In this document: positions 1 to 64,000 of the stretch, one piece after another
How positions within the stretch are numbered: position 1 is the first letter of the stretch
Layout: the number at the start of each line of letters is the position of its first letter
Assembly: GCA_041390905.1 (NCBI GenBank)
Contig: JAWKPA010000012.1
Location: forward strand, 63,216-127,215
Direction: 5' to 3'
DNA from: Chloroflexota bacterium
GTDB lineage: Bacteria; Chloroflexota; Anaerolineae; Promineifilales; Promineifilaceae
DNA length: 64,000 nucleotides
Translations under genes and position numbers: made by a program
The notes under the pieces: generated by a model
Database searches by the model: none
Seen by the model: the letters and a program-made list of their open reading frames with translations, nothing else
What the model was told of the DNA's origin: nothing

Positions 1-124
1 CCTACACCCCACTCTCCACACCAAAAAATCACCGAATGTTTGCGCGGCAGTCCGCTGTTTGTGCTATACTAAATGGGCAAATTTCGGTGAATTTTGGGCA
101 TTTCCCAAGGAGAGTAAATAAGAG

Positions 125-298
125 ATGGCAAAGACAACACATAAACGGCGCGTGGTAAAGAAGAACCCAACGTTGCAAAAAGAACGCCCCGAAGGGCCGG
201 TGGCTCGAAAGCGGAACATTAACTGGGCCAAGTGGGTGGCAATTGCAATTGCTGTGCTGGTTTCGCTCAGCATGATTCTGTCTCTAATCAAGTTTTAG
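125..298 (+). CDS. small hypothetical membrane protein (57 aa); basic N-terminus plus one TM helix
   Basis: ATG at 125 preceded by AAGGAGAG (107-114). Reading MAKTTHKRRVVKKNPTLQKERPEGPVARKRNINWAKWVAIAIAVLVSLSMILSLIKF. Not in the supplied ORF track (below its size cutoff). The antisense 64..291 ORF is less plausible. Confidence 0.4.
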   Translation: MAKTTHKRRVVKKNPTLQKERPEGPVARKRNINWAKWVAIAIAVLVSLSMILSLIKF

Positions 299-344
299 AC
301 CCTGGCAGGCAGATAATAGGTTGGCTTGGCATTATGCCGGGTTT

Positions 345-470
345 TTTGTTACCGCAGACGTCAATCAGGCTTTGTTGGCTTTTCAGAATTTGAACCGCAA
401 AGAGCGCAAAGGGCGCGAAGAAAGAAAAAACAAGCCAAAACTTTGCGTTCTTTGCGCCCTCTGCGGTTAA
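345..470. repeat. imperfect inverted-repeat element (gaaccgcaaagagcgcaaagggcgc ... gcgttctttgcgccctctgcggtt); same family as the outer arms of the 21815-22018 element
   Basis: Arms share the core CCGCAGAGGGCGCAAAG / CTTTGCGCCCTCTGCGG with the copy at 21826-21850 / 21990-22016. Lies downstream of the Nudix gene's 3' end. Confidence 0.5.
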
Positions 471-481
471 TGAGCAAACAT

Positions 482-1447
482 CTAGAAAACGGCCGTTTTC
501 CCCCCTCTCAACCCATCTTCAATCCGATCCCGGTGGCGCGGCGGCAGCGGCGGCAGGTTATCCGGGGCAAAGTAGCGCAGCTCCAGCGACTCCTCGCCGT
601 CGGCGCAAAGTGTACCGCCCACCACGCGGCACAAAAACAGCGTGCTAACATATTTCATCAAGTCGCCGTTGGGGTAAGCCACCGCAAACCGATCATCCGA
701 GTAAACCCCCGCGACCTGTACCGGCTCGATTACCAGCCCCGTTTCCTCAAAAATCTCGTGGATCACCGTCTGGTCAATCCGCTCCCCCAGCTCCATGCCC
801 CCGCCCGGCAATGCCCAACTGCCATCATCGCCACGCCGCTGCAACAGCACATGGCCGTTTTCGTCCAAAACAAGGGCGGCGGCGGCGGGGCAAATAAACC
901 GAGCTTGCCCCACATGGCGGCGCACAAAGCGGAAGTACGGTTCATCGGCGCGGCTGTTGCCCGGCTGCCCACGCTGAAAGCTGGCTTCGGGCCGGTTGGC
1001 AAGGCAATCTTCGGCCATAGCGCGGTACCAAACGGCCGTTTCCCCCAACCTGTCCAACAATTCCCCCGGCTCACACCACACCAGCCCCGTCGTTTCATCC
1101 CCATCCAGCAGTAGTTCCCCCCCCGTGACACGGCATTCAAAGGTGGCGGTAAACTGCTGCACCTGGTCGCCGTTGGGATACGCCACATCAAAATCGGGCG
1201 AACTGTAGAGGCCAATCAGCCGCGTCACGGCCACATCCAGCCCCGTTTCCTCGCGGGCTTCGCGCACGGCGCAAGCGGGCAAACTTTCGCCCAACTCCAG
1301 CACGCCGCCGCTGAACCCCCACCAGCCAAAGTCGCCTCGCTGTTGCAGCAGAAAACGGCCGTTACTGTCCCGAATAACGGCCGTTGCCGTTACCAAAATA
1401 ATTTTTTGTGAACCAACCTGGCTCCGAATCCAATGCAAATACGACAT
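482..1447 (-). CDS. tandem (double) Nudix hydrolase
   Basis: Two Nudix boxes: GGVLELGESLPACAVREAREETGL and GGGMELGERIDQTVIHEIFEETGL. AAAGG lies 7 nt upstream of the ATG. Confidence 0.85.
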   Translation of the reverse strand: MSYLHWIRSQVGSQKIILVTATAVIRDSNGRFLLQQRGDFGWWGFSGGVLELGESLPACAVREAREETGLDVAVTRLIGLYSSPDFDVAYPNGDQVQQFTATFECRVTGGELLLDGDETTGLVWCEPGELLDRLGETAVWYRAMAEDCLANRPEASFQRGQPGNSRADEPYFRFVRRHVGQARFICPAAAALVLDENGHVLLQRRGDDGSWALPGGGMELGERIDQTVIHEIFEETGLVIEPVQVAGVYSDDRFAVAYPNGDLMKYVSTLFLCRVVGGTLCADGEESLELRYFAPDNLPPLPPRHRDRIEDGLRGGKTAVF

Positions 1448-1473
1448 GTGTACCTTTGCGTGAGCTTCTTTCG

Positions 1474-2590: not shown

Positions 2591-3997
2591 ATGAGTGCTT
2601 TATTACCTCCCGGCCCTGAAAGCAAGGGCATTTGGGGCAATCTAAACGAGTTTGCGCCTAATCCACCGGTATATTTGCTCAAACTAGCCAAAACCTACGG
2701 GTCAATTTCCCGCTTTCGCATTCTCAACCGCCATATGTATCTGCTGACTGACCCGGACATGATTCGGGAAGTGCTGGTGAAGCAGCAGGAGATTTTTGCC
2801 AAAACGCCATTTGACAAGGAAGTGCTGGGGCGGTTTTTGGGAAAGGGGCTGCTGACCAGCGATGGGGAATTTCACAAACAGCAGCGAAAATTGGTGCAGC
2901 CTGCCTTCCACATGAAGCGGATTCGGGAATATGCTGAGGTGATGGTTCAGTATACGGAGCGAATGTTGAACGGCTGGCAGGACGGGGAGGTGCGCCGTTT
3001 GGATGAGGAGATGATGGCGCTGACGATGATGATTGTCTCTAAAACGCTGTTTGACGCTGATGTGGAAACGATGGAGACGCAGGTGCAGGCGGTGGAGGAG
3101 GCGATGGATGTGGTGCAGCGCAGCTCGAACGCCGATTATCGGCGTGGCTTCCCGGTGCCAAACTGGCTGCCAACGCGCAACAACCGGGAGCGGAAGCAGG
3201 CGGCGAAGGTGCTGGCGGAGGTGTTGGGGGGGATTATTGCGGAGCGGCGGAGGGAGGAAACGGCCGTTGATCACGGTGATCTTCTTTCCATGCTGCTTCT
3301 GGCGCAGGGAGAAGACGGCAGCCAAATGAGTGACCAGCAAGTGCTGGACGAAGCGGTGACGCTGTTTGCGGCGGGACACGAAACGACATCCAACGCGCTG
3401 ACGTGGGCGTGGTATTTGTTGAGCCAGCATCCGGAGGTGGAGGCGCGGCTGCATGAAGAGGTGGATGGGACGCTAAACGGCCGTTTACCCACCCTCCACG
3501 ACCTGCCTAACTTGCCCTATACGGAAATGGTGATCAAGGAAGCTCTGCGGCTTTACCCACCAGCGTGGATGTTAAACGGCCGTTCGCCCCTTACCGACAC
3601 CGAAGTGGGCGGCTACCCCATCAAAAAGGGGAGCATTGTCTTTATCAGCCCCTATGTCATGCACCGACTGCCACACTATTTTGACGAGCCGGAAGCGTTT
3701 CGGCCGGAACGGTTTACGCCAGAACTGGAAAAAGAGCTGCCGCGCTATGTCTATCTGCCGTTTGGGGCTGGGCCACGGGTGTGCATTGGCAATTCATTTG
3801 CCATGATGGAGGCACAACTGCTGCTGGCAACCATCGCCCAGCGTTTCTGTTTTGAACTGGTGCCGGGGCAGGAAGTTGTGCCAAATCCGCTGATTACCCT
3901 GTCGCCGCGTGACGGGCTGCGTATGCGGCTGGTGGCGCGGGAGGCAGAGCCAGGCCATGTCGCAGCGGGAGAAGCCGTTTATGCAATGGGGGATTGA
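2591..3997 (+). CDS. cytochrome P450 monooxygenase
   Basis: Heme-binding loop FGAGPRVCIGNSFA. I-helix AGHETTS. GGAG lies 10 nt upstream of the ATG. Confidence 0.9.
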   Translation: MSALLPPGPESKGIWGNLNEFAPNPPVYLLKLAKTYGSISRFRILNRHMYLLTDPDMIREVLVKQQEIFAKTPFDKEVLGRFLGKGLLTSDGEFHKQQRKLVQPAFHMKRIREYAEVMVQYTERMLNGWQDGEVRRLDEEMMALTMMIVSKTLFDADVETMETQVQAVEEAMDVVQRSSNADYRRGFPVPNWLPTRNNRERKQAAKVLAEVLGGIIAERRREETAVDHGDLLSMLLLAQGEDGSQMSDQQVLDEAVTLFAAGHETTSNALTWAWYLLSQHPEVEARLHEEVDGTLNGRLPTLHDLPNLPYTEMVIKEALRLYPPAWMLNGRSPLTDTEVGGYPIKKGSIVFISPYVMHRLPHYFDEPEAFRPERFTPELEKELPRYVYLPFGAGPRVCIGNSFAMMEAQLLLATIAQRFCFELVPGQEVVPNPLITLSPRDGLRMRLVAREAEPGHVAAGEAVYAMGD

Positions 3998-4264: not shown

Positions 4265-4741
4265 TTAGGAATAAATCACACTAAAGAACCAGAGTGTGAG
4301 CAGATGGATGAGGCCAAGCAGAAGGGTGCTGCCACCGTGAATCACAACGGCCGTTTTTCCCACTCCCCATCCTGGTTCCACACCGCGCCACCGCCAAAAA
4401 ACGGCCGTTGTGCCACTGTTCAATAGCCATAGTTCTAGCAACCCCAGCCCCACTCGTGGTAAGGTAGCATGTTTATAAGGGACAGCAACCATCCCAATAT
4501 TTTGCACGAGAAAAGCCACCCAATATACACCTGAAGACTCAAGCAACCCTGCCAGACTAAACAAAAGCCATATGGCAATGAAACAAACGATGAAAAGCAG
4601 GATTGACTCTTGCACGCTTTGTTTTATTGGAAACTGTTTGCAACGATAGAGCAGATAGCATTCGGCGGCTATCTTGCTAATACTCATCACAGGAACCATA
4701 ATCGTTATGATGAAACCAACGACCAGCCATTCACCGACCAT
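4265..4741 (-). CDS. hypothetical polytopic membrane protein (low-GC segment)
   Basis: Start at MVGEWLVVGF (cat 4739-4741) with AAGGAGAG 7 nt upstream. Several hydrophobic helices. No recognisable family. Confidence 0.55.
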   Translation of the reverse strand: MVGEWLVVGFIITIMVPVMSISKIAAECYLLYRCKQFPIKQSVQESILLFIVCFIAIWLLFSLAGLLESSGVYWVAFLVQNIGMVAVPYKHATLPRVGLGLLELWLLNSGTTAVFWRWRGVEPGWGVGKTAVVIHGGSTLLLGLIHLLTLWFFSVIYS

Positions 4742-4888
4742 GATGTGACTCTCCTTAGCGCGATGCCTACGACGAAAACAGGCGCGTGTAGACATATGAC
4801 AGGATGGTTAATCCAACAATGAGGCAAAAGCTGGTGATGTTGGCATAAACGGCCGTTCGCCACACCTTTGAAAGAGGATGCCGTTTTG

Positions 4889-5311: not shown

Positions 5312-6868
5312 CTAGTGTTTTTGATTTTCGGCTAATTCATCTTGCCAAAGCATGTCGGCCAGCCGCAAACGGCCGTTTTCCAAATAATGGGCATATAGCC
5401 TCCCCCCGGTACGCGCCCCGCTTGCCAACTCCACCCCACAGGCACGCTCCACCTCCCGAATAATTTCCTGCCGCGTCTTGCCCTCCACATACCCCTTCAC
5501 CAGCAGCAAATACGCCACCCACTGATCCGAAGCCGGGTTTGGCGGTTGCACACCCGGCGCGGGGCAAAAGTGATTATGAAGGTATTCCTCGAAAAAGTGA
5601 CGCAGCACCCGTGCCTTTTCCGCTTCCGAAAGGGCGGTTAACGGCAATTTGTTTTGTTGGGCAAAGGTGATTAACGGCCGTTGCAACAACTTCAAAGACA
5701 ACAGCCGACTTTGCCCCATCACCTCATCCTTGGCAAACTGTTTGTGGCGAAAAATGGCCTGCACTTCATCGGCAATCAATTCCCGCAGTTGCGCCACCTG
5801 CGCCGCTTGCGTCAGGGCGATCAACGCCTGCTGCGCCATCGCCAACGCTTCCTGCTGGTCGGGAGCCAGCAAAATCGCCTGCCGCACCTGATCAAACTGA
5901 AATAAAAAGCGCGACTCCCAGTTGGGCAGCAGCAGCCGATTAACCAGCAGCAAAAACCAGGGGCGTGCCGCCGCCGTTCCCAGCAGCAAGACGACGGTTA
6001 GCAACACCGTAAACGGCGGCAAAATAATCCCCATCAGGCCATGCGCCCCATACAAAATGAGCAAAAAGATTGCTACATTCAGCACCGTTCGCCCCAGCGA
6101 GCGACGAAAATCGTGCGCCACCTGCTTTTGCTGTAAAAAAGCATCGTAGTGGGCAATACCGCGCCCCACCAGCGTCAGTCCCACCGCCAGCACCCCATGC
6201 CCAACTTGTTCCGGTAGCCAGCCACTGGCATATCCAGCAATGCTCAGCGATGCGCCCAGGGCAACAATGGTGCCGCCAGCCACCAGCCAACGGAACTCGC
6301 GCTGTTCATGGCTTTGTGGTTGGCTGCTTCGGTATCGCTGCCACAATAGATAAACGGCCGTCCACAACACCACCCCCAAAAAACCACTATAAAACAGCCA
6401 TTGACCAGCCGCCAATGGCACAAAAAACGGCTCAATCCCTGCCAAGCTTGGGGCAATCTCGCCATAACGAAAAATAGATTCGCTAAAACTGCCCCACAGC
6501 GTCAACACCACAGCATAAACCAACACGACTCTTGGCGACCAGCGGGCAAAGCCAGACAGTTTCATGATCGTCGGCTGTGGCAATCGCGCCACCGCCCGAA
6601 ACCAAAGCGCAATTGCCAACGGTACCGTCCACCAGCCACCACGCAGCCAAAAGAGGTAGCTCGCAGGATCTGGAGCGGCTACCCTCATCGCCCCCCCAAA
6701 AAAGAAAAGCGACACCAGGGTTAACCCCAAACCCGCCGACATGGCCGTCGTTCGCAACAAATCGCGCCACGCCAGTTCGCCTACTTCTAGCGGCAAGCCG
6801 CGTGTCAACACATACAGCCCTAGCCAGAGGAAAAAGCCGCCAATGAAGAGTTCAAAATGGAAGAGCAT
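5312..6868 (-). CDS. hypothetical membrane protein (about 8 TM helices) with a C-terminal cytoplasmic domain
   Basis: 518-aa ORF. The hydrophobic N-terminal two-thirds are followed by a soluble about 200-aa tail. Lies 27 nt downstream of the amidase gene on the same strand. Confidence 0.55.
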   Translation of the reverse strand: MLFHFELFIGGFFLWLGLYVLTRGLPLEVGELAWRDLLRTTAMSAGLGLTLVSLFFFGGAMRVAAPDPASYLFWLRGGWWTVPLAIALWFRAVARLPQPTIMKLSGFARWSPRVVLVYAVVLTLWGSFSESIFRYGEIAPSLAGIEPFFVPLAAGQWLFYSGFLGVVLWTAVYLLWQRYRSSQPQSHEQREFRWLVAGGTIVALGASLSIAGYASGWLPEQVGHGVLAVGLTLVGRGIAHYDAFLQQKQVAHDFRRSLGRTVLNVAIFLLILYGAHGLMGIILPPFTVLLTVVLLLGTAAARPWFLLLVNRLLLPNWESRFLFQFDQVRQAILLAPDQQEALAMAQQALIALTQAAQVAQLRELIADEVQAIFRHKQFAKDEVMGQSRLLSLKLLQRPLITFAQQNKLPLTALSEAEKARVLRHFFEEYLHNHFCPAPGVQPPNPASDQWVAYLLLVKGYVEGKTRQEIIREVERACGVELASGARTGGRLYAHYLENGRLRLADMLWQDELAENQKH

Positions 6869-8312: not shown

Positions 8313-8330
8313 CGTCAAGGAATATACACA

Positions 8331-12803: not shown

Positions 12804-12804
12804 G

Positions 12805-30312: not shown

Positions 30313-30367
30313 AGGATGATGTGTGTGGGAAAAACGGCCGTTTTTTCCCACATTCAGGAGATACACC

Positions 30368-44625: not shown

Positions 44626-44822
44626 AAGTGCTTCTTCCTGTCAATAAATTATGGCAATCCTTATCTGGATACCACTATCATTCATTATATGCGTTTATGG
44701 GATTGTGGGCGAAACGGCCGTTTCTCGGCCATCTCATCATTTACTCATTTTCACACAACTGGTTTATAATTACGCTCCTTATCAACTTGGCAAGCGGTAC
44801 ACTTTTGTACCAAGGAGGAACT

Positions 44823-54519: not shown

Positions 54520-54635
54520 TGCGATTTCCTCGTCTCCAATGCTGGCTCAGTCTCTTGTGCCTTGCGCCCTGCATGACAAAAGTGCCTTGCACCACAGATG
54601 GAACAAGGCACCTGATTATAGCTTTTTTTCCTGGC

Positions 54636-57074: not shown

Positions 57075-57181
57075 ATCGTTGCCTCTTTCCTCTATTCTTG
57101 AAGGTATGACGAATCGAAACGAACTGAAAAACACTAAAGAAATAACCTTTCTATTTGATTATAGTGGTTAGAGTTTGGTGT

Positions 57182-58020: not shown

Positions 58021-60431
58021 TGTATGGTAACCGTTGGTTTCAGGATTGGCTGGGCTGGCTGATCGTTTTGACGCTGGTGAGTGGGATCGTAACGGCCGTT
58101 AATTTCTACCACAGCATCGGCCAACCATTCGGCGGCTATTTAACCTTCTACAATCCAATCAGCAATCGCTGGCAAATCGACATCATTACCCCCACTTGGT
58201 GGACAGGCATCTCTGAGGCCAACCTGGCAACAAACAGCCGCTTACTGGAAATAGATGGGCGTGTCTATGACTACCAGATTGACGAACCCGCTTTATTTCG
58301 GGAAGTCTACACCCGCAATCCACCCACTGTTACCCTAAAGATAGAGCAAGAGGGGGAACTCATTGAAAAACAACTGCGCGTCCTTCCCTTTAGCTGGGTT
58401 CATTACCTCGACCTCATCGTTCCCCATGTAATCGGTGGCCTCACCTTTTGGCTACTCGCCCTAATTGTTTATCAGATACCGTCACCAGAGTTACTTAATC
58501 AGGTCTTTGTGGTCATGTGTTGCCTAGGAGCCATCAATCGCTGGTTAAGCCGCGTGGGCCTATTTGTCCATACTGATGTCGTGACGCACATCATTGATTT
58601 GGTTGGCTTATGGTCATTTTCATTTCTGGGCAGTTTGTTCATCCACTTTGCACTTTTGTTCCCAACACGCGCTCGATTTCATCACAAATATTTGCTTTAT
58701 TTTGTGTATGGAGTCGGTTTGATTGCCCTGATTGGCTATAGTGGTGGTCGCTTGGTAATCTGGCTAAATTTACCTATCGCTTGGGCAGGACAACTTGACA
58801 ATCTGGGCTTCCGAATCGCTTGGCCGTTGAGCATGATTGGGGTTGGTGCTATTGTTGTTCGCCTACTGGCTACTTCCATTGCCAATCCATCGCGGCGCTT
58901 GCGTCGGCAAGCACTCATCCTGCTCAGTGGCATCTCCTTAATTTTGCCTTATCTCATTGCTGTTTGGGCTATCTTCTTAGCCGGTGGTGAAGATGAGGCG
59001 CATACACTCTATTGGCGCGGGTTGGATTCGCGCTATCTTGTTGCTGCTGGGCCGGCTGCTGCTGCCTTGATCATTTTACGCTACCAAACTTTCCGTCGCG
59101 TGCCGCCTCTCTTTCTAATCGTCCCCGTCTTAGCTGTCAGTGCCATTGTCGCCAATGTTGGCTCTGTGATTTGGGCATGGTCACTGCCATTCTCGCCCAT
59201 TGCCTGGAAACTGCCGCCCTTTATTCCCGCCCTCGGCATGACCCTCATTGTCAGCCTTATTTGGGTTACACAAAGCTCATGGCGCGGCTTCTTTGGCCGC
59301 GTTTTGCATTGGCGACAACAGAACGATGATGCTGCCAAGCGATTTGGGCAGCATGTGACGAGCCAAGCCGATTTGTCGGCCATGCCAAAACGGATTGCGA
59401 CTGCTTTGGTCAGCGAGTTGCAGCTAGAAAGAACGGCCGTTTGGGTTTGGCAAGAAGCCACAGAGAGTTTCCAATTAGTTGGGCAGGCAGGGGAATCGGT
59501 GCCACCATTACCCGAACATTTGCCAGCAGCTGCAGTATCCCTGCAACAAGCGGTGCAATTTGGTGGGCAAGCGGTTACTTTACCCGATTGGTTAAGCCCG
59601 TTTCAGCAGCAGCCGGGACTTGCCATGCTGGTTCCGCTGTGGATAGCTAATCGTATGACGGGTCTATTAGGGTTGGGGAAGCGTTGGGATGAGGAAATTT
59701 TTGATGAGCGCGACCTTGATATCATTGATCTCATTGCCCAGCAATCAGCCCTCTTCCTACTGACAGCACAACAAGTTGAGCAACTGCGTCAGGTTCCCGG
59801 CCATATCGCTCTGGCTCAGGAAAGTGAGCGGCTGAAGTTGGCTCGGGAGCTACATGACACGGTGCAGCAGCTTTTGGGACGTTTGCCATTCTACCTGGAA
59901 GTTAGCCGCCAGACGATGTGGACAACACCAGGTAAAGCAGACCAATTGTTGGACAAAAGCATTCTTGATGTGGAGGAAGCGGCCAGGGCAGTGCGCCAGA
60001 TTCGCAACAACCTGGCTCCAAGCCAATTGGAATATGGATTGATGCAGCCCATGGTGGGCTTGTGTGAACAGTTTGAACGGCGCACAGGTATCCAAATCGT
60101 TTGGTATTTGCATCCATCTGTTGATCATGTTCTCTCGCTGGAAGCGCGTCATGCGCTTTATCGTGTCGTTCAACAGGCATTGGATAATATTGAGGAACAT
60201 GCTCAGGCAACGGCCGTTAATCTTACCTTGAACTACGAAAACAACAGGATAGCATTCTGCATCACAGATAACGGGCAAGGATCGTCTGCAGAACAGCGCA
60301 GCCAGAAACAGGGGCAAGGTGCTTTTGGGTTACGCTCAATGACAGCCCGCATCCAAACTTTGGGCGGACATTTTGAATTTTCTTCTGCGCTGGGGGAAGG
60401 GTCGTGCGTACAAGGCTGGATCCCAATATAA
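58020..60431 (+). CDS. sensor histidine kinase (multi-TM sensor, GAF-like region, HisKA_3 + HATPase_c; NarX-type)
   Basis: About 10 TM helices. H-box LARELHDTVQQLL. C-terminal ATPase (…GQGAFGLRSMTARIQTLGG…). Confidence 0.85.
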   Translation: MYGNRWFQDWLGWLIVLTLVSGIVTAVNFYHSIGQPFGGYLTFYNPISNRWQIDIITPTWWTGISEANLATNSRLLEIDGRVYDYQIDEPALFREVYTRNPPTVTLKIEQEGELIEKQLRVLPFSWVHYLDLIVPHVIGGLTFWLLALIVYQIPSPELLNQVFVVMCCLGAINRWLSRVGLFVHTDVVTHIIDLVGLWSFSFLGSLFIHFALLFPTRARFHHKYLLYFVYGVGLIALIGYSGGRLVIWLNLPIAWAGQLDNLGFRIAWPLSMIGVGAIVVRLLATSIANPSRRLRRQALILLSGISLILPYLIAVWAIFLAGGEDEAHTLYWRGLDSRYLVAAGPAAAALIILRYQTFRRVPPLFLIVPVLAVSAIVANVGSVIWAWSLPFSPIAWKLPPFIPALGMTLIVSLIWVTQSSWRGFFGRVLHWRQQNDDAAKRFGQHVTSQADLSAMPKRIATALVSELQLERTAVWVWQEATESFQLVGQAGESVPPLPEHLPAAAVSLQQAVQFGGQAVTLPDWLSPFQQQPGLAMLVPLWIANRMTGLLGLGKRWDEEIFDERDLDIIDLIAQQSALFLLTAQQVEQLRQVPGHIALAQESERLKLARELHDTVQQLLGRLPFYLEVSRQTMWTTPGKADQLLDKSILDVEEAARAVRQIRNNLAPSQLEYGLMQPMVGLCEQFERRTGIQIVWYLHPSVDHVLSLEARHALYRVVQQALDNIEEHAQATAVNLTLNYENNRIAFCITDNGQGSSAEQRSQKQGQGAFGLRSMTARIQTLGGHFEFSSALGEGSCVQGWIPI

Positions 60432-60477: not shown

Positions 60478-61629
60478 ATGATTACCCTAATTGCCACAGC
60501 CAAATTTGGGCTGGAAAAAATGGTGCGGCTGGAAGTGGCGGCACTGGGTTTTGACAACATTGCCGTGTCGCCGGGGCGCATTGAGTTTGCGGCGACGCTG
60601 GCCGATATTCCCCGGCTTAACCTGTGGCTGCGCTGTGCCGACCGGCTGCTGCTGAAGGTGGCGGAATTCCCGGCGACGACGTTTGATGATCTGTTTGAGC
60701 AGTGCAAGGCCATTGAATGGGAGCGGTGGATTGGGGAAAACGGCCGTTTTCCCGTCGCCGCCCACAGCGTCAAATCCACCCTCATGAGCGAACGAAGCTG
60801 TCAATCCATTGTCAAAAAGGCGGTCGTGGATCGGTTGAGTGCGGCGTATGGGGTGGCATGGCTGGCGGAAACGGGCGCCGAATACGCCATTCACCTGTCG
60901 CTGCACAAGGACGTGGCTCTGCTGACGCTCGATACCTCCGGCGCGGGGCTGCACAAGCGGGGGTACCGCGAGGAAGCGGGGGAAGCACCGCTGAAGGAGA
61001 CGCTGGCGGCGGCGCTGGTGAAGTTGAGCTATTGGCGACCCGATAGGCTCTTGATTGACCCCATGTGTGGCTCTGGCACCATCCTCATCGAAGCGGCACT
61101 GATGGCGCGGAATATAGCTCCGGGGTTAAAACGGCCGTTTGCTGCCGAGCAGTGGCCCATCATCCCCGCTGCCGCTTGGGCAGGAGCCAGGCACGAAGCC
61201 GAAGCCGCCATTCGCCACGACATGGCACTGCAACTTTATGGCTACGATAGTAACCCCGCTGCCATTGCCATTGCCAAAAGCAATGCTGCCAAGGCAGGGG
61301 TAGGCGACGACATTGTGTTTGCCGTCAAAGACGTGCGGGAACTGTGGATTGACCAGCAGCACGGCATCGTCATCACCAATCCACCCTACGGCATGAGGAT
61401 GGCCGAATATCAGACGCTCAACCAAATCTACATCGCCCTCAACAAAATGTTCCGCAAAAAGCAGGGCTGGTCAGTCTATGTCCTCACTGCCGACCACAAA
61501 TTCCCCGACTACTTCAAACGCGCCCGCCCCGACCGCGTTCGCAAGCTCTACAACGGCACGATTGAGGCCAATTACTATCAATATTATGGGGAAAAGCCGC
61601 CGGGGGGGAAAGAGAATTATGAATTATGA
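60478..61629 (+). CDS. THUMP-domain class I SAM-dependent RNA methyltransferase (RlmL/YpsC-like, COG0116)
   Basis: N-terminal THUMP region. DPMCGSGTILIEAA. ITNPPYG catalytic motif. Confidence 0.8.
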   Translation: MITLIATAKFGLEKMVRLEVAALGFDNIAVSPGRIEFAATLADIPRLNLWLRCADRLLLKVAEFPATTFDDLFEQCKAIEWERWIGENGRFPVAAHSVKSTLMSERSCQSIVKKAVVDRLSAAYGVAWLAETGAEYAIHLSLHKDVALLTLDTSGAGLHKRGYREEAGEAPLKETLAAALVKLSYWRPDRLLIDPMCGSGTILIEAALMARNIAPGLKRPFAAEQWPIIPAAAWAGARHEAEAAIRHDMALQLYGYDSNPAAIAIAKSNAAKAGVGDDIVFAVKDVRELWIDQQHGIVITNPPYGMRMAEYQTLNQIYIALNKMFRKKQGWSVYVLTADHKFPDYFKRARPDRVRKLYNGTIEANYYQYYGEKPPGGKENYEL

Positions 61630-61672: not shown

Positions 61673-61681
61673 TAAGGGAAT

Positions 61682-62164
61682 CTATACCCCCTCCACCAAA
61701 ATCCGCGTAATCTGCTCCAAATGGTCGTTGTCGTGATGCCCCACCTGAATGGCGGCATCGGTCACGTCAAAGCTGTCGCGTTCGGGGTGAACGCCGGTTC
61801 GCGCCCACTGCGCCGCGTCCAGCGATTTGAACAAGGCCACAAACCGCTCCCGCGAGGCGACCAAATCGGCATACGCCCGGTGTAAATCTTGCTCGTTGTA
61901 GCGCAGGTCAATGGCAATTTGCTCGTGGTCGTAGGCGGGTAGCATGGGGTGGTCTTGTTCCAGCATCATCATGACGCGGTGGTAAAAAAAGCCGTCGAAG
62001 TCACGCAAATGGCAAACAACTTCAAGGATTGTCCAGCCGTTGGGGCCATCACGCCGGGAAACGGCCGTTTCTGGCGACACCAACTGCAAAATATGCCCCA
62101 ACGTCTTTACACTGTTCTGCATCAGCCGCACGTGACGCTTCTGCAACATTTCAATCGGTTCCAT
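61682..62164 (-). CDS. DinB/YfiT-like (DinB_2) family protein
   Basis: 160 aa. His-rich motifs (HLRDFDGFFYHRV … HHDNDHLEQI) are typical of the DinB_2 four-helix-bundle metal-binding family. Confidence 0.6.
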   Translation of the reverse strand: MEPIEMLQKRHVRLMQNSVKTLGHILQLVSPETAVSRRDGPNGWTILEVVCHLRDFDGFFYHRVMMMLEQDHPMLPAYDHEQIAIDLRYNEQDLHRAYADLVASRERFVALFKSLDAAQWARTGVHPERDSFDVTDAAIQVGHHDNDHLEQITRILVEGV

Positions 62165-62186
62165 AATGGTTTATTCTCTCCTTTTC

Positions 62187-62876
62187 TCAACCAGCAGCGT
62201 GAGACAGCACCCGCTCCGGGTAATTCGTAAACACCCCATCCACCCCCCAGCCACGCAGCCGGGCAATGTCGTCGGGTTCGTTGACGGTGTAGGGCAGCAC
62301 CAGCAGGCCGTGGGCGTGGGCTTCCCGGACAAACAGCTCCGTTAACCCCTCATACCAGGGATTAACCGACGCGGCTTGTAGCCGCTGCGCCGTTGGAATG
62401 CCCACCTCCATGTTGTCCCACAGCAGCACCCCCAGCGGCACCTCGGTGTGGTGCTGGCGGGCAATGGCAAGCTCGTCGTGGCGGAAGGAGGAGAGGAGAA
62501 TTTGGCGCAGATCCCAGCCGGCCGCGAGATAGGGCTGCAGGAAGTTGAGGGTGGAAACGGCCGTTTCCGGCCCCTTCAACTCCACATTAATCCCCACCCG
62601 CCTGTCCACCAAATCAAACACCTCCCGCAGCAGCGGGATTTTTTCCCCTTTGCCCGCATCCAGCGAACGCAAATAGGCCAGCGATTGCGCCATCACCAGC
62701 CCCGTCCCGTTTGTCGTCCGGTCCAGCTCGTCGTCATGAATGACAACCAGCTCCCCCTCTACCGCATACACATCAATCTCAATCCAATCCACCCCCAATT
62801 CCAACGCCTTCGCCACCGAACGCAGCGTATTCTCCGGCTCATGTCCCATTGCTCCACGATGTCCAATGCACAACAT
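62187..62876 (-). CDS. glycerophosphodiester phosphodiesterase (GlpQ/UgpQ family)
   Basis: MLCIGHRGAMGHEPENTL … EIDVYAVEGELVVIHD (catalytic His/Glu motifs). Confidence 0.85.
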   Translation of the reverse strand: MLCIGHRGAMGHEPENTLRSVAKALELGVDWIEIDVYAVEGELVVIHDDELDRTTNGTGLVMAQSLAYLRSLDAGKGEKIPLLREVFDLVDRRVGINVELKGPETAVSTLNFLQPYLAAGWDLRQILLSSFRHDELAIARQHHTEVPLGVLLWDNMEVGIPTAQRLQAASVNPWYEGLTELFVREAHAHGLLVLPYTVNEPDDIARLRGWGVDGVFTNYPERVLSHAAG

Positions 62877-62882
62877 AATTCT

Positions 62883-62950
62883 TGGAAGTAATCAGTAATC
62901 GGTAATCAGTTGGGGTCACTGATTACCGATTACTGATTACCGATTACCCT
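62883..62950. repeat. heptamer-tandem hairpin element (CGGTAAT type)
   Basis: cagtaatcggtaatcagttggggtcactgattaccgattactgattaccgattacc. Confidence 0.75.
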
Positions 62951-64000
62951 GTATTTTTCAACCCCGACGCAATTCCGTTGATCGTCAGGAAAATGATGCG
63001 GAGCAGCGACTGCCCCTCTTCGCCCTGCCGCGCTTCCGGCGGCAACGACCGCAGCCGCGACAGCAGGCTGACCTGAATAAAGTTCAGCGGGTCAATGTAC
63101 GGGTTCCGCAGCCGCACCGACTGCTGCAGTACCGGGTCATTGTCCAGCAGTTCCTGCTGCACCGTCACCCGCAAAATCCATGCTTCCGTTTCGGCAAACG
63201 CCGCCTTGATGTGGCTGTACACCTGCTCCCGCACCTGCTCGTCCTCTACCAGTTCAGCATAGAGCCGGGCAATCCCCATGTCGGCCTTCACCAGCGACAC
63301 CTGGGCGTTATCAATGACGGTGCGGAAGAAAGGCCATTCGCGGTACATCTCTTGCAGCAGCACCCGCCGCGCCGGGGTGGAGCCAAACGCCGCCAGCGCA
63401 TGACCCACGCCATACCAGCCCGGCAGCACGTGGCGGCTTTGCATCCAGCTGAACCCCCAGGGAATGGCCCGCAGGCTGCCCAAAATATCGCCCCCCAGCC
63501 GCTTGGCCGGCCGTGACCCAATCCGCATCTGGCTGATTTCGTTTAGCGGCGTGGCTTGGCTCCAATATTCCAGCAGTTCCGGCGTTTCGTAAATGAAGCG
63601 ACGGTATGCCTGGTACGATGTGGCCGCCATTTCGGCCATCGCCTCGCGCCACGCCGGTTTGGGCTGGGGAAGCTGGCTTTTGTCGGGCGGCATACTTGCC
63701 AGCAGCACAGCGTGGATCACCTGCTCCAAATGGCGTTGGGCAATGGCTGGATGGCCGTACCGTTCGCCAATCACCTCCCCCTGTTCGGTAATCCGCACGC
63801 GGCCGCCGACGGAGCCGGGGGGCTGGGCCAAAATGGCGCGATTGGCCGGGCCACCCCCCCGCGCAATGGTGCCGCCGCGCCCGTGGAAAAGCATCATCAC
63901 CACGTCGTTGGCGCGGCAGCATTCGGCCAGCCGCTCCTGCGCCTCATACAGCTCCCAGTTGGCGGCCAGATAGCCCGCGTCTTTGTTGCTGTCGGAGTAG
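62944..64000 (-). CDS. ppc: phosphoenolpyruvate carboxylase, C-terminal part (5' end lies beyond the window)
   Basis: …YSDSNKDAGYLAANWELYEAQ…; MLFHGRGGTIARGGGP (conserved PEPC motif); terminal …LKNTG. The reading frame is open to the window edge. Confidence 0.85.
   Translation of the reverse strand, partial: YSDSNKDAGYLAANWELYEAQERLAECCRANDVVMMLFHGRGGTIARGGGPANRAILAQPPGSVGGRVRITEQGEVIGERYGHPAIAQRHLEQVIHAVLLASMPPDKSQLPQPKPAWREAMAEMAATSYQAYRRFIYETPELLEYWSQATPLNEISQMRIGSRPAKRLGGDILGSLRAIPWGFSWMQSRHVLPGWYGVGHALAAFGSTPARRVLLQEMYREWPFFRTVIDNAQVSLVKADMGIARLYAELVEDEQVREQVYSHIKAAFAETEAWILRVTVQQELLDNDPVLQQSVRLRNPYIDPLNFIQVSLLSRLRSLPPEARQGEEGQSLLRIIFLTINGIASGLKNTG

What the first reader, a model, noticed from the sequence alone, without database searches (positions are those of the whole stretch)
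1..64000. Highly iterated 10-bp palindrome AACGGCCGTT (HIP-like) throughout the window
By eye there are roughly 80-90 perfect or one-mismatch copies, against fewer than 1 expected by chance in 64 kb. Examples are at 489, 1031, 1352, 1376, 3262, 3479, 3576, 4349, 5370, 7205, 8139, 9880, 10331, 11266, 13222, 15574, 20310, 21590, 21603, 24167, 28771, 28787, 30340, 33585, 37595, 41937, 44714, 48987, 60744 and 62064. Most copies lie inside CDS in every frame, which is why so many ORF translations, real and spurious, contain NGRF, KRPF or TAV(F/N). Copies are depleted in the low-GC islands (HNH/ATPase pair; giant secreted proteins). This is the same genome-wide behaviour as cyanobacterial HIP1 (GCGATCGC), but with a different sequence. 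Adjacent pairs of copies form ready-made stems, for example at 1352/1376, 17268/17283, 21590/21603 and 28771/28787, the last followed by a T6 run.
Basis: seen in the sequence. Interest (0 to 1): 0.75.

Follow-up and report, generated by a model that had tools for sequence, protein, structure and literature searches.

The report
Highly iterated palindrome in Chloroflexota
A 10-base palindrome (AACGGCCGTT, core ACGGCCGT) is written into this genome about once per kilobase, mostly inside genes. It is kept in place by selection on the DNA itself across a whole clade of uncultured Chloroflexota, making it a second, independent counterpart of the long-unexplained cyanobacterial HIP1 repeat, with an extra strand-polar signature that HIP1 lacks.

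Summary
The window holds 75 exact AACGGCCGTT copies (0.1 expected) and 16 one-mismatch copies.

- **It is a DNA-level signal.** Synonymous-codon shuffling leaves about 2 copies of 72. Of 49 Thr-Ala-Val tripeptides, 48 are spelled ACGGCCGTT.
- **Source and range.** The source is an uncultured Chloroflexota MAG. The 8-mer core ACGGCCGT is the top 8-mer in relatives and occurs at 0.6-3 per kb in about 45 species (Promineifilaceae, Ardenticatenaceae). Outer bases vary by lineage.
- **Sites are conserved.** At orthologous positions 21/22 sites are shared where ordinary 8-mers are 40% identical, and 6/11 where they are 7% identical. Synonymous positions inside the motif are frozen.
- **Distribution.** Foreign islands (Septu system, low-GC giant genes) lack it. 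Phages of the clade carry it.
- **New finding.** Chromosomal copies sit at a two-fold-symmetric GC-skew switch: each strand is G-rich and C-poor 5' of the site. The skew sits at third codon positions, decays over about 100 nt, and scales with motif quality. It is absent at other CGGCCG/GGCC sites, phage-borne copies and HIP1.

No hairpin, mobile element or cognate methyltransferase was found. Best reading: a HIP-like recognition word for a symmetric DNA-processing protein that starts strand-polar transactions. The mechanism is inferred, not shown.

The parts
488..497 (.). exact AACGGCCGTT, in ORF 482-1447(-), TAV phase
1031..1040 (.). exact copy, ORF 482-1447(-), TAV phase
1354..1363 (.). exact copy, NGR phase; left arm of pair 1354/1376 (10-bp stem)
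1376..1385 (.). exact copy, TAV phase; right arm of pair 1354/1376
3259..3268 (.). exact copy, P450 ORF 2591-3997(+), TAV phase
3476..3485 (.). exact copy, P450 ORF, NGR phase
3575..3584 (.). exact copy, P450 ORF, NGR phase
4346..4355 (.). exact copy, ORF 4265-4795(-), TAV phase
4400..4409 (.). exact copy, ORF 4265-4795(-), TAV phase
4848..4857 (.). exact copy, intergenic
5368..5377 (.). exact copy, ORF 5312-6868(-), NGR phase
5673..5682 (.). exact copy, ORF 5312-6868(-), RP phase
6353..6362 (.). one-mismatch copy AACGGCCGTC (8-mer core intact)
7204..7213 (.). exact copy, amidase ORF 6895-8331(-), TAV phase
8133..8142 (.). exact copy, amidase ORF, NGR phase
8464..8473 (.). exact copy, intergenic; conserved in L005
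9368..9377 (.). one-mismatch copy AACGGCCGTA (core intact)
9876..9885 (.). exact copy, TPR ORF 9654-10757(-), TAV phase; conserved in L005
10329..10338 (.). exact copy, TPR ORF, TAV phase; conserved in L005
10556..10565 (.). exact copy, TPR ORF, NGR phase; conserved in L005
10674..10683 (.). exact copy, TPR ORF, TAV phase; absent in L005 (2 core differences)
11261..11270 (.). exact copy, ABC-F ORF 10914-12803(-), NGR phase; conserved in all five relatives compared (L001, L003, L005, L006, L007)
12751..12760 (.). exact copy, ABC-F ORF, RP phase; shared with L001 only
13220..13229 (.). exact copy, ORF 12873-14090(-), NGR phase; shared with L001, L005
13497..13506 (.). exact copy, ORF 12873-14090(-), TAV phase; shared with L001, L003, L005, L007
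14503..14512 (.). one-mismatch copy GACGGCCGTT (core intact), Ldh ORF; shared with L001, L005
15570..15579 (.). exact copy, SpoU methylase ORF 15306-16178(-), TAV phase; shared with L001
15870..15879 (.). exact copy, SpoU ORF, TAV phase; shared with L001; AATGGCCGTT in L003
15969..15978 (.). exact copy, SpoU ORF, TAV phase; shared with L001
16088..16097 (.). one-mismatch copy TACGGCCGTT (core intact); shared with L001
17267..17276 (.). one-mismatch copy AACGGCCGTA (core intact); left arm of pair with 17288
17288..17297 (.). exact copy, CtaG ORF 16768-17673(-), RP phase; right arm of pair; shared with L001
17566..17575 (.). exact copy, CtaG ORF, TAV phase; shared with L001
17625..17634 (.). exact copy, CtaG ORF, NGR phase; shared with L001
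17683..19589 (-). motif-free low-GC island (GC 0.43-0.47): Septu defence pair PtuB (HNH) + PtuA (ATPase); absent from the collinear sister locus L001. It serves as a negative control showing that foreign DNA lacks the palindrome
19739..19748 (.). exact copy, MoeA-PBP ORF 19679-21739(-), TAV phase; shared with L001, L007
20309..20318 (.). exact copy, MoeA ORF, TAV phase; shared with L001
20981..20990 (.). exact copy, MoeA ORF, TAV phase; shared with L001, L007
21116..21125 (.). exact copy, MoeA ORF, TAV phase; shared with L007 but replaced by a divergent patch in L001
21587..21596 (.). exact copy, MoeA ORF, TAV phase; left arm of pair 21587/21604
21604..21613 (.). exact copy, MoeA ORF, NGR phase; right arm of pair; shared with L001, L007
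22965..22974 (.). one-mismatch copy AACGGCCGCT (core broken)
23823..23832 (.). exact copy, ORF 22729-24348(+), TAV phase; shared with L001
24166..24175 (.). exact copy, ORF 22729-24348(+), NGR phase; shared with L001
24316..24325 (.). exact copy, ORF 22729-24348(+), NGR phase; shared with L001
24429..24438 (.). exact copy, FabH-like ORF 24345-25472(-), TAV phase
25844..25853 (.). exact copy, M20 peptidase ORF 25604-26869(-), TAV phase
26759..26768 (.). exact copy, M20 peptidase ORF, TAV phase
26955..26964 (.). exact copy, ORF 26873-27238(-), RP phase
28379..28388 (.). one-mismatch copy GACGGCCGTT (core intact)
28764..28773 (.). exact copy, intergenic; left arm of terminator-like pair
28786..28795 (.). 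exact copy, intergenic; right arm of the pair, followed by T6 on the + strand
28895..28904 (.). exact copy, start of ORF 28882-30312(+), RP phase
30081..30090 (.). one-mismatch copy AGCGGCCGTT (core broken)
30333..30342 (.). exact copy, start of ORF 30323-30940(+), RP phase
31025..31034 (.). one-mismatch copy TACGGCCGTT (core intact), intergenic
32016..32025 (.). one-mismatch copy AACGGCCGTG (core intact)
33089..33098 (.). exact copy, S58 peptidase ORF 32942-34069(-), TAV phase
33581..33590 (.). exact copy, S58 peptidase ORF, TAV phase
35114..35123 (.). one-mismatch copy AACGGCCGTA (core intact)
35250..35259 (.). exact copy, ORF 35108-35464(+), RP phase
36125..36134 (.). exact copy, CoA-transferase ORF 35840-37105(-), TAV phase
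37161..37170 (.). exact copy, PMT_2 glycosyltransferase ORF 37129-39342(-), NGR phase
37216..37225 (.). exact copy, ORF 37129-39342(-), TAV phase
37591..37600 (.). exact copy, ORF 37129-39342(-), TAV phase
38356..38365 (.). exact copy, ORF 37129-39342(-), TAV phase
38875..38884 (.). exact copy, ORF 37129-39342(-), TAV phase
39079..39088 (.). exact copy, ORF 37129-39342(-), TAV phase
39202..39211 (.). exact copy, ORF 37129-39342(-), TAV phase
40427..40436 (.). one-mismatch copy ACCGGCCGTT (core broken)
41934..41943 (.). exact copy at the start of ORF 41514-41951(-); also inside overlapping ORF 41904-42743(+)
42609..42618 (.). exact copy, ORF 41904-42743(+), NGR phase
43081..43090 (.). exact copy, ORF 42829-43626(-), TAV phase
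43441..43450 (.). one-mismatch copy AACGGCCGTA (core intact)
44713..44722 (.). exact copy, SBP ORF 44628-45863(+), RP phase
45494..45503 (.). one-mismatch copy AGCGGCCGTT (core broken)
46951..46960 (.). exact copy, permease ORF 45962-48262(+), TAV phase
47377..47386 (.). exact copy, permease ORF, TAV phase
47473..47482 (.). exact copy, permease ORF, TAV phase
48407..48416 (.). exact copy, ABC ATPase ORF 48345-49436(+), TAV phase
48528..48537 (.). one-mismatch copy AACGGCCGTA (core intact)
48984..48993 (.). exact copy, ABC ATPase ORF, NGR phase
49546..57134 (-). low-GC (0.45-0.46) pair of large genes: a 1657-aa Kelch/M23/fn3 protein and an 832-aa LVIVD-repeat protein. It holds only 2 exact copies in 7.6 kb, so it is a motif-poor region
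51088..51097 (.). exact copy inside the low-GC giant ORF, TAV phase
52864..52873 (.). one-mismatch copy AACGGCCGTA (core intact) inside the giant ORF
54395..54404 (.). exact copy near the start of the giant ORF, RP phase
58091..58100 (.). exact copy, GAF histidine kinase ORF 58020-60431(+), TAV phase
59432..59441 (.). exact copy, kinase ORF, TAV phase
60209..60218 (.). exact copy, kinase ORF, TAV phase
60739..60748 (.). exact copy, RlmL rRNA methyltransferase ORF 60478-61629(+), NGR phase
61130..61139 (.). exact copy, RlmL ORF, RP phase
62060..62069 (.). exact copy, ORF 61682-62164(-), TAV phase
62556..62565 (.). exact copy, ORF 62187-62876(-), TAV phase

Best explanation
SHOWN. AACGGCCGTT is the local dialect of a clade-wide highly iterated palindrome whose invariant core is ACGGCCGT (inner hexamer CGGCCG). 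It is written into existing genes by base substitution, not by insertion, at 1-2 copies per kb. It forces Thr-Ala-Val, Asn-Gly-Arg or Arg-Pro into proteins. Individual sites, including their synonymous positions, are retained between species far beyond the surrounding sequence. Recently acquired islands lack it, while phages of the clade carry it. On chromosomes each copy is the centre of a two-fold-symmetric strand polarity: on each strand the 5' flank is G-rich and C-poor. This polarity is strongest at third codon positions, decays over about 100 nt (200-300 nt in this genome), and scales with motif quality. It is absent at non-motif CGGCCG/GGCC sites, at phage-borne copies and at cyanobacterial HIP1.

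INFERRED. The word is the recognition site of a symmetric (dimeric) sequence-specific DNA-processing protein and serves as a tag of resident DNA, in the way HIP1, uptake sequences and Chi do. The polarity is the long-term mark of a strand-asymmetric transaction that starts at the site and runs outward on both sides. The simplest version is a nick or cut at the site followed by 5'-to-3' resection. The strand that ends 3' at the site (its 5' flank) would then be repeatedly single-stranded or used as the recombination or repair strand. Either a mutational footprint or selection for G-rich 3' tails would give the observed sign. I put about 0.85 on 'selected HIP-like DNA recognition word', about 0.4 on 'entry site for polar recombination/repair processing', and about 0.25 on the specific 3'-tail model.
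For: - Abundance: 75 copies against 0.1 expected.
- DNA-level origin: synonymous shuffle gives 2.0 against 72 observed. TAV occurs 49 times against 7.9 expected, with 48/49 spelled ACGGCCGTT. NGR occurs 24 times against 3.4 expected.
- No insertions: motif sites fall in aligned, conserved parts of ABC-F and other orthologues.
- Clade-wide range: it is the top 8-mer in all ABC-F-anchored relatives. 92 of 110 genome-collection hits are carriers, all but one labelled Chloroflexota, with 0.6-3 extra cores per kb; the 18 non-carrier hits have essentially none (0-0.13 per kb).
- Site conservation, shared sites against identical ordinary 8-mers: 21/22 against 40%, 8/12 against 27%, 6/11 against 7%.
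- Synonymous codons are identical in 43/43 core codons against 73% elsewhere, and 87% against 46% in the distant pair.
- Only the first ~10 nt of flank are extra-conserved.
- Inner one-off variants number 4-43 sites per class against 1,378 perfect cores.
- Islands: 2 copies against 12.7 expected. The Septu island is absent from the sister genome.
- Polarity in the window: +0.31/-0.40 within 30 nt, against -0.025 +/- 0.04 at random positions in the same genes. At third codon positions, G3 is 0.54 and C3 0.09 upstream, C3 0.47 and G3 0.18 downstream.
- Polarity in the clade: 0.27 [0.24, 0.30] at 5-12 nt and 0.16 [0.14, 0.19] at 13-30 nt, with 90-96% of 91 loci positive.
- Dose-response and specificity: 0.35/0.24/0.12 for full decamers, 0.24/0.14/0.07 for partly extended cores, 0.07/0.03/0.01 for outer one-offs, and about 0 for other CGGCCG, GGCC and GCGC sites.
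- Phage copies lie in terminase, portal, capsid and tape-measure genes at about 2 per kb, but their skew is 0.00 [-0.06, 0.06] and 0.04 [0.01, 0.07].
- HIP1 sampled the same way has skew 0.01 [-0.05, 0.09].
Against: - No protein that reads the site was identified. No DNA methyltransferase, Vsr-like or restriction gene linked to the motif appears in the window or in about 1 Mb of related DNA. That sample covers well under 1% of each genome.
- At synonymous sites the flank change is a pure C-to-G swap with no rise in T. This is not the classical single-strand deamination signature, and it favours selection on composition, or an unknown process, over a simple footprint.
- Palindromy fits a dimer on duplex DNA but is atypical for Chi or known uptake signals.
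- Copy spacing in the window is close to random (CV 0.98), so there is no evidence of a spacing requirement.
- Phage copies may lack polarity for reasons other than short residence.
- Positional conservation could in principle be mimicked by a drive that keeps restoring near-sites.
Confidence: 0.55

Rival explanations
1. A neutral molecular drive with no cellular function. A methyltransferase-linked short-patch or mismatch-repair ratchet, as Elhai proposed for HIP1, keeps converting near-matches into perfect sites in any DNA that replicates in these cells. Abundance and apparent conservation would then be by-products.
For: - Perfect cores vastly outnumber inner one-off variants.
- Resident phage DNA carries the motif at host-like or higher density.
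- Foreign islands lack it.
- The inner CGGCCG and central GGCC are classical methyltransferase and restriction sites (established knowledge: EagI, HaeIII). This parallels CGATCG/GATC inside HIP1 (PMC4390886).
Against: - Sites are kept at the same orthologous positions at about 70% DNA identity, 6/11 against 7% for ordinary 8-mers. PMC5861425 uses this kind of evidence to argue selection rather than replenishment.
- Where a site is missing, the orthologous sequence is usually 2-6 core differences away, not a one-off awaiting conversion.
- There is no excess or deficit pattern specific to C-to-T decay products.
- No such enzyme was found, although that search was weak.
Confidence: 0.2
2. A DNA-uptake signal for natural transformation, as with Neisseria DUS or Pasteurellaceae USS and as recently proposed for HIP1. 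A surface receptor would bind the word so that DNA from the same clade is preferentially taken up.
For: - Density is about 1 per kb, with lineage 'dialects' that keep a core and vary the outer bases.
- There is a reading-frame bias, with peptide motifs imposed on proteins.
- It is absent from foreign islands, and inverted pairs form terminator-like stems.
- A ComEC homologue exists in a relative (L006).
- HIP1 has been linked to transformation efficiency (bioRxiv 10.1101/2024.09.10.611283 and 10.64898/2026.06.24.733823).
- Entry of single strands 3'-end first from a site-proximal cut would give the observed polarity sign. This last point is inference.
Against: - Known uptake signals are asymmetric, and none is a perfect palindrome (established knowledge).
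- Competence has not been shown for this uncultured clade, and ComEC alone is not diagnostic.
- No pilin or receptor candidate was examined.
- High density in phage structural genes is not predicted by this model.
Confidence: 0.2
3. A by-product of codon usage or of abundant peptides such as Asn-Gly-Arg and Thr-Ala-Val.
For: 72 of the copies are in ORFs, and the phases are uneven.
Against: Keeping every protein and every gene's codon usage but shuffling synonymous codons leaves 2.0 +/- 1.4 copies against 72. Shuffling codon order leaves 0.07. TAV and NGR are over-represented only in that residue order, and 48/49 and 23/24 of them are spelled with the motif. Copies also occur in intergenic DNA.
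Confidence: 0.01
4. A miniature mobile element or REP-like hairpin repeat that has spread by insertion.
For: It is high-copy and palindromic, and the arms are G-rich and C-rich, which could suggest a stem.
Against: - Flanks share no sequence beyond composition. Complementarity equals the expectation from base composition.
- Folding energy is -8.3 kcal/mol against -7.7 for arm-shuffled and -7.9 for random 70-mers.
- No second motif is present in the flanks.
- Sites lie in aligned conserved coding sequence without length change.
- 95% of copies are in ORFs, whereas REP/BIME elements are intergenic.
Confidence: 0.02
5. An RNA-level element, such as a terminator, an RNA-stability hairpin, or a Rho-utilisation context provided by the C-rich, G-poor RNA downstream of each site.
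For: Adjacent pairs give 10-bp stems, and one is followed by U6. Because of the symmetry, the transcript is C-rich and G-poor downstream of the site whichever strand is transcribed.
Against: Only 4 pairs exist among 75 copies, and single copies cannot form a stable hairpin. The U6 pair lies between divergent genes. Rfam finds nothing. An 8-bp perfect palindrome conserved on both strands points to duplex-DNA recognition.
Confidence: 0.05

Closest known systems
HIP1 (Highly Iterated Palindrome 1, GCGATCGC) of cyanobacteria and its variants (GGGATCCC, TCGATCGA, CAGGCCTG)
   Same: - It is an 8-bp perfect palindrome at about 0.3-2.7 copies per kb, tens- to hundreds-fold over expectation.
- It sits mostly inside genes in all frames, with lineage-specific extensions and variants.
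- Individual sites are conserved between species, and horizontally acquired DNA lacks it (PMC4390886 and PMC5861425, compared).
- The architecture is parallel: N-CG-[4-bp methylase-type palindrome]-CG-N'. HIP1 is G-CG-GATC-CG-C; this element is A-CG-GGCC-CG-T.
   Different: - The sequence and the phylum differ (Chloroflexota, not Cyanobacteriota).
- No cognate methyltransferase has been identified.
- Chromosomal copies have a graded, strand-polar G/C flank signature that HIP1 copies sampled the same way lack.
- The 10-90 kb periodicity reported for HIP1 could not be tested in 64 kb.
DNA uptake sequences (Neisseria DUS, Pasteurellaceae USS)
   Same: Density is about 1 per kb, and family-level 'dialects' share a core. 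There is a reading-frame bias with imposed peptides, under-representation in foreign DNA, and frequent inverted pairs acting as terminator-like stems (established knowledge; PMC1939737 listed).
   Different: DUS and USS are asymmetric words bound by a competence receptor. Here the word is a perfect palindrome, competence is unknown, and the flank signature is G/C polarity rather than AT-rich phased flanks.
Chi recombination hotspots (RecBCD/AddAB)
   Same: Both are short, over-represented 'self' words that are rare in foreign DNA, and phages can benefit from carrying them. Chi marks the 3' end of a preserved single strand and lies in GT-rich DNA favoured by RecA (established knowledge). The polarity here has the same geometry: the G(+T)-rich strand ends 3' at the site.
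   Different: Chi is asymmetric, read on single-stranded DNA, oriented with replication, only a few-fold over-represented, and found about once per 5 kb in E. coli. This word is palindromic and 26- to 750-fold over-represented.
REP/BIME and other intergenic palindromic repeats; Rickettsia palindromic elements
   Same: Both are high-copy palindromic repeats. Rickettsia palindromic elements also sit inside genes.
   Different: Those are 35-150 nt insertions with homologous arms and hairpin potential. Here only 8-12 nt are defined, there is no insertion, and no hairpin.

Membership tests
HIP1 sensu stricto | Sequence GCGATCGC, or a one-step derivative retaining GATC, in a cyanobacterium | tested here: not met
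   The word is ACGGCCGT and the organism is a Chloroflexota MAG. It is not listed among the HIP variants in PMC4390886 Table 2.
HIP-type element (functional class) | Perfect palindromic octamer, tens- to hundreds-fold over-represented, at about 0.3-3 per kb | tested here: met
   75 decamers against 0.1 expected. There are 87 cores in 64 kb, and 1,153 cores in 642 kb of related genomes. O/E is 26 against a third-order Markov model that is inflated by the motif itself.
HIP-type element (functional class) | Over-representation not explained by codon or amino-acid usage | tested here: met
   Synonymous shuffle gives 2.0 +/- 1.4 against 72 observed.
HIP-type element (functional class) | Individual sites conserved between species more than control words | tested here: met
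   Shared sites against identical ordinary 8-mers: 21/22 against 40%, 8/12 against 27%, 6/11 against 7%. Synonymous positions are frozen.
HIP-type element (functional class) | Cognate (orphan) DNA methyltransferases recognising the inner sequence | not testable with these tools
Signature screens of about 1 Mb found only an rRNA methyltransferase and one unrelated MvaI/BcnI-type R-M cassette.
HIP-type element (functional class) | Periodic distribution at the 10-90 kb scale | not testable with these tools
   The window is 64 kb. Local spacing is near-random, CV 0.98.
DNA uptake sequence (DUS/USS) | Preferential uptake by a competence receptor; competence machinery present | not tested
   The only relevant observation is a ComEC homologue in one relative. 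No uptake data exist for this uncultured clade.
DNA uptake sequence (DUS/USS) | Asymmetric 9-12 nt word present in both orientations | tested here: not met
   The word is a perfect palindrome. One lineage (L272) has a one-sided AACGGCCG form.
Chi | Asymmetric word with orientation bias relative to replication | tested here: not met
   It is palindromic, so it has no orientation.
REP/BIME or MITE-like repeats | Intergenic location, homologous arms and a stable hairpin | tested here: not met
   95% of copies are in ORFs. Flank complementarity equals the composition expectation. Folding energy is no better than shuffled controls.

The most novel reading that the evidence does not exclude
The palindrome is the loading or cleavage site of a clade-specific recombination, repair or uptake machine that generates 3'-ended single strands outward from the site in both directions. 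In effect it would be a palindromic, bidirectional 'Chi/uptake-like' self-tag. The graded G/C polarity would then be its evolutionary footprint on chromosomes. Phages copy the tag to pass as self but do not acquire the footprint.
Probability: 0.2. Interest if true: 0.9.

Novelty: new variant of a known kind. Interest (0 to 1): 0.72.

Why it matters
The function of HIP1 has been an open question for about three decades, and it has been studied only within cyanobacteria.

An independent element of the same kind, in another phylum and with another sequence, makes comparison possible. One can ask which gene families co-occur with a HIP in both phyla, and what differs between them. The carrier and non-carrier lineages found here give a natural contrast for phylogenetic profiling.

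The strand-polar flank signature is specific to the full motif, graded with motif quality, present on chromosomes and absent from phage copies. I found no description of such a signature in the HIP papers I read (PMC4390886, PMC5861425, 10.64898/2026.06.24.733823). It gives a concrete, testable handle on mechanism: a two-sided, outward, strand-asymmetric DNA transaction.

Practically, the word is a strong marker for binning contigs from this clade, for spotting foreign DNA, and for assigning phages to hosts. The clade includes abundant filamentous Chloroflexota of activated sludge.

Tried and rejected
1. **Codon or peptide bias.** Rejected by synonymous and codon-order shuffles.
2. **Hairpin or cruciform formed by the G-rich and C-rich arms.** Position-wise complementarity equals the composition expectation. 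The MFE is no better than arm-shuffled or random sequence.
3. **Hidden second motif in the flanks.** Only generic GGC/GGT words and T-runs are enriched.
4. **Artefact of GG|CC-centred words sitting at skew junctions.** Non-motif CGGCCG, GGCC and GCGC sites show no skew.
5. **General 5'-to-3' gradient within genes.** Random positions in the same genes show none.
6. **Flanks as a mutational hot zone or conserved sequence.** Divergence beyond ~10 nt equals background.
7. **5mC deamination footprint.** C-to-T one-off variants are not in excess.
8. **Cognate methyltransferase.**
   - Window ORF 60478-61629 is an RlmL/THUMP rRNA methyltransferase.
   - The only DNA methyltransferase found (L266 9015-9827, N4-cytosine type) sits beside an MvaI/BcnI-family endonuclease and an IS1595 transposase. 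It is an unrelated mobile R-M cassette.
9. **Known RNA families.** None reached the Rfam gathering thresholds.
10. **Literature.** No paper in the library reports this word as a genomic repeat. The hits for the string are a Thermus transcription-factor site and primers.
11. **Exact-protein look-ups.** Two window proteins gave nothing, probably because of start-codon differences or because the source assembly is not indexed.
12. **Hits outside Chloroflexota in the genome scan.** They have essentially no further copies (0-0.13 extra cores per kb), so they are chance pairs.

Full report
**Observation.** The window (64 kb, 55% G+C) contains 75 exact copies of AACGGCCGTT. Dinucleotide-preserving shuffles give a mean of 0.10 and a maximum of 1. 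It is by far the commonest 10-mer, and ACGGCCGT (87 copies) is the commonest 8-mer. Sixteen further copies differ at one position, always one of the four outer positions and never in CGGCCG.

Seventy-one copies lie in ORFs. All three codon phases are used, but unevenly: 45 read xxA-ACG-GCC-GTT (Thr-Ala-Val), 17 read AAC-GGC-CGT (Asn-Gly-Arg) and 10 read xAA-CGG-CCG-TTx (Arg-Pro).

**DNA-level signal, not peptide-level.** I kept every protein sequence and every gene's codon usage but permuted synonymous codons. That leaves 2.0 +/- 1.4 copies against 72. Permuting codon order leaves 0.07. Thr-Ala-Val occurs 49 times against 7.9 expected, while its permutations (VAT, AVT and so on) occur at expectation, and 48 of the 49 are spelled ACGGCCGTT. 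Asn-Gly-Arg occurs 24 times against 3.4 expected, and 23 of them are spelled AACGGCCGT.

**Source and phylogenetic range.** The ABC-F ATPase of the window (10914-12803, minus strand) is 100% identical to a protein of an NCBI 'Chloroflexota bacterium' MAG with a 2.9-Mb contig. Its relatives are labelled Anaerolineales, Promineifilaceae, Ardenticatenaceae and Ca. Leptofilum.

Loci around orthologues at 94, 87, 77, 69, 68, 65 and 62% protein identity all have ACGGCCGT as their top 8-mer, at 0.7-1.8 per kb. The frequency of the A...T extension differs between them. One locus (L272) has mainly a one-sided AACGGCCG form, and one (L274, 60% G+C) essentially lacks the 8-mer.

Ninety-two of them carry 0.6-3.0 additional cores per kb. 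All but one of the 92 are labelled Chloroflexota: Ardenticatenaceae, Ca. Promineifilaceae, Ca. Leptofilum, Ca. Leptovillus, Ca. Hadersleviella and unnamed Anaerolineae MAGs, about 45 species in all, spanning 43-60% G+C. The exception (L037) is labelled Gammaproteobacteria and is probably misbinned. The 18 other hits, from unrelated phyla, have essentially none (0-0.13 per kb) and are chance pairs. NCBI places the named carriers in class Ardenticatenia, orders Promineifilales and Ardenticatenales. Pooled, there are 1,153 cores in 642 kb, with A at -1 and T at +1 in 65% of copies.

**Site conservation.** L001 is collinear with window 10.9-24.3 kb at 83-90% nucleotide identity. The table gives shared core sites in aligned DNA against the fraction of ordinary 8-mers that are identical.

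| Relative | Shared core sites | Ordinary 8-mers identical |
|---|---|---|
| L001 | 21 of 22 | 40% |
| L005 | 8 of 12 | 27% |
| L003 | 2 of 6 | 13% |
| L007 | 6 of 11 | 7% |

Where the amino acid is conserved, the codon is identical in 43/43 core codons against 73% elsewhere (L001), and in 87% against 46% (L007). Where a site is missing, the orthologous sequence usually differs at 2-6 core positions. Sites fall in aligned coding sequence without length change, so they arise by substitution. In the pooled data 1,378 perfect cores compare with 4-43 sites for each inner one-off class, and C-to-T products are not in excess. This is the pattern used to argue selection for HIP1 (PMC5861425).

**Foreign and mobile DNA.** The low-GC stretch 17683-19589 encodes a Septu defence pair (PtuA E = 8e-151, PtuB 3e-38). 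It is absent from the collinear L001 and has no copy. The low-GC genes at 49546-57134 (a Kelch/M23/fn3 protein and an LVIVD-repeat protein) have 2 copies. Together these islands hold 2 copies against 12.7 expected, P = 3e-4.

By contrast, 19 of 32 IMG/VR stretches found with the same pattern carry the core at 0.6-3.6 per kb. These include copies in large-terminase, portal, head and tape-measure genes.

**An unexpected strand polarity.** Around the copies, the 5' flank of each strand is G-rich and C-poor, and by symmetry the 3' flank is C-rich.

In sense orientation the effect is strongest at third codon positions. Within 30 nt, G3 is 0.54 and C3 0.09 upstream, and C3 is 0.47 and G3 0.18 downstream, against a background of 0.34 and 0.30. 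It persists more weakly beyond 150 nt. It also shifts amino-acid usage: Gly, Val, Glu and Trp rise upstream, and Thr, Gln and His (with smaller rises in Ser and Pro) rise downstream. Random positions in the same genes show nothing: -0.025 +/- 0.04, against +0.31 and -0.40 at the motif.

The table gives the flank GC skew by distance from the core, with bootstrap intervals over loci where available.

| Set | 5-12 nt | 13-30 nt | 31-60 nt | 61-120 nt |
|---|---|---|---|---|
| 91 chromosomal carrier loci | 0.27 [0.24, 0.30] | 0.16 [0.14, 0.19] | 0.08 | 0.03 |
| Phage-borne copies (same immediate extension) | 0.00 [-0.06, 0.06] | 0.04 [0.01, 0.07] | -0.002 | -0.004 |

Of the chromosomal carrier loci, 78-96% are individually positive. 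Cyanobacterial HIP1 sampled the same way, from a metagenome scan for HIP1 pairs plus 50 kb of a Nostoc plasmid, gives 0.03 at 5-12 nt and 0.01 at 13-30 nt.

The polarity scales with motif quality and is specific to the full motif.

| Site class | 5-12 nt | 13-30 nt | 31-60 nt |
|---|---|---|---|
| Full decamers | 0.35 | 0.24 | 0.12 |
| Cores extended on one side or neither | 0.24 | 0.14 | 0.07 |
| Outer one-off variants | 0.07 | 0.03 | 0.01 |
| CGGCCG without A/T, other GGCC, GCGC | about 0 | about 0 | about 0 |

It is not base-pairing. Flank complementarity equals the composition expectation, and the folding energy is -8.3 kcal/mol against -7.7 (arms shuffled) and -7.9 (random 70-mers). No discrete second motif is present. 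Flank sequence beyond ~10 nt diverges at the background rate. So it is a maintained compositional polarity, not a conserved sequence or a mutational hot zone.

**Interpretation.** What is shown:
- It is a clade-wide, DNA-level, positionally conserved palindromic word with dialects.
- It is absent from foreign DNA and present in the clade's phages.
- A chromosome-specific, motif-specific, graded, two-fold-symmetric strand polarity is centred on it.

What is inferred is the following. A perfect 8-bp palindrome points to a symmetric dimer reading duplex DNA. The polarity points to a transaction that begins at the site and proceeds outward on both sides, treating the two strands differently. The G-rich strand is the one that ends 3' at the site. 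That is the geometry of 3' tails left by a nick or cut plus 5'-to-3' resection, of Chi-dependent processing, or of 3'-first entry of transforming strands.

At synonymous sites the change is C-to-G without a rise in T. Simple deamination of exposed strands therefore does not fit well, and selection for G-rich, C-poor 3' tails or an unknown repair bias is equally possible. Phage copies lack the polarity, so it is not needed for the word to be acquired or kept. It is either slow to build or relevant only to the chromosome.

I could not identify the reader protein. The window's only methyltransferase-like ORF is an rRNA enzyme, and the single DNA methyltransferase in the related DNA belongs to an unrelated MvaI/BcnI-type cassette.

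**Comparison with known systems.** The closest known system is cyanobacterial HIP1. It shares the length, palindromy, density, intragenic location, dialects, site conservation and absence from foreign DNA. It also shares the nested architecture N-CG-(GATC or GGCC)-CG-N', whose inner words are classical methylase or restriction sites; that last point rests on established knowledge and was not tested here. This element is not a member of HIP1 by sequence or lineage, and it differs in having polar flanks.

Uptake sequences share the density, dialects, frame bias and paired stems, but they are asymmetric. Chi shares the 'self-tag' logic and the 3'-tail geometry, but it is asymmetric and far less enriched. 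REP/MITE-type repeats are excluded. No paper in the searchable library describes this word as a genomic repeat.

**Limits.**
- Only 64 kb of the source genome and about 1 Mb of related DNA were available.
- The species scan was truncated, so the taxonomic range is a lower bound, and absence elsewhere in Chloroflexota is not established.
- ORF calls are longest-ORF heuristics.
- Taxon labels are those of the records.
- The mechanism is inference.

Noticed in passing
window 12806-12841, 20759-20795, 32930-32961, 37096-37121 (GGAGATT/AATCTCC units); also 8251-8288, 14046-14077, 15286-15325, 61614-61645, 62918-62947 (other 7- or 14-nt units): Short tandem arrays of heptamer units sit mostly in the spacers between genes or at gene ends. 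GGAGATT-derived 8-mers are also about 4-fold over-represented across the whole clade's loci. This recalls the heptameric STRR repeats of cyanobacteria, which also co-exist with a HIP.
   Followed up: partly
window 17683-19589 (minus strand): This is a Septu anti-phage system: PtuA ATPase (E = 8e-151) and PtuB HNH nuclease (3e-38). It lies on a 1.9-kb low-GC insertion that is absent from the collinear sister locus L001.
   Followed up: yes
window 49546-57134 (minus strand): Two large low-GC (0.45-0.46) genes: a 1657-aa protein with Peptidase_M23, fn3 and Kelch beta-propeller domains, and an 832-aa LVIVD-repeat protein. The region is motif-poor, so it is probably a relatively recent acquisition.
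   Followed up: partly
window 28474-28881: A 400-nt region lies between divergent genes. It contains a 13-nt inverted repeat (gaagttcaacttc...gaagttgaacttc), then the motif pair 28764/28786 forming a 10-bp stem followed by T6, which looks like a terminator. This could be a small RNA or leader. Rfam finds no match.
   Followed up: partly
L245, L261/L243, L239, L240, L263/L247, L265, L266, L270, L250 (IMG/VR contigs): These predicted viral contigs carry the Chloroflexota palindrome at 1.5-3.6 cores per kb, including inside terminase, portal, capsid and tape-measure genes. The word could therefore serve as a host-assignment marker for phages of this clade.
   Followed up: partly
L266 8314-10738: A mobile cassette: an IS1595-family transposase, an N4-cytosine DNA methyltransferase (PF01555; PDB 8s9n-like, 1e-36) and an MvaI/BcnI-family restriction endonuclease. 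It sits inside a motif-dense contig but is itself nearly motif-free.
   Followed up: yes
L003 9424-10856; L273 13460-14956: Diversity-generating-retroelement-like pairs (reverse transcriptase RVT_1 plus bAvd accessory protein, beside FGE-sulfatase-domain target genes) lie a few kb downstream of the ABC-F gene in two different relatives.
   Followed up: no
L037 (CALKWL010000057.1, labelled 'uncultured Gammaproteobacteria bacterium' MAG): This 10.7-kb contig has 7 decamers and 9 cores in 8 kb, like the Chloroflexota carriers. It is probably a misbinned Chloroflexota contig.
   Followed up: no
L272 and L274 (ABC-F orthologue loci at 65-66% identity): These are dialect extremes. L272 has 27 one-sided AACGGCCG sites, no full decamer and no flank polarity. 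L274 (60% G+C) has only 4 cores but 89 CGGCCG hexamers in mixed contexts. Both are useful as near-non-carrier contrasts.
   Followed up: partly
window 21116-21125 versus L001 3802-3823: This is the only site lost between the window and its closest relative. It is replaced in L001 by a locally very divergent ~20-nt patch, while the sequence downstream stays similar, and the site is present in the more distant L007. That suggests loss by a multi-nucleotide event rather than a point mutation.
   Followed up: no
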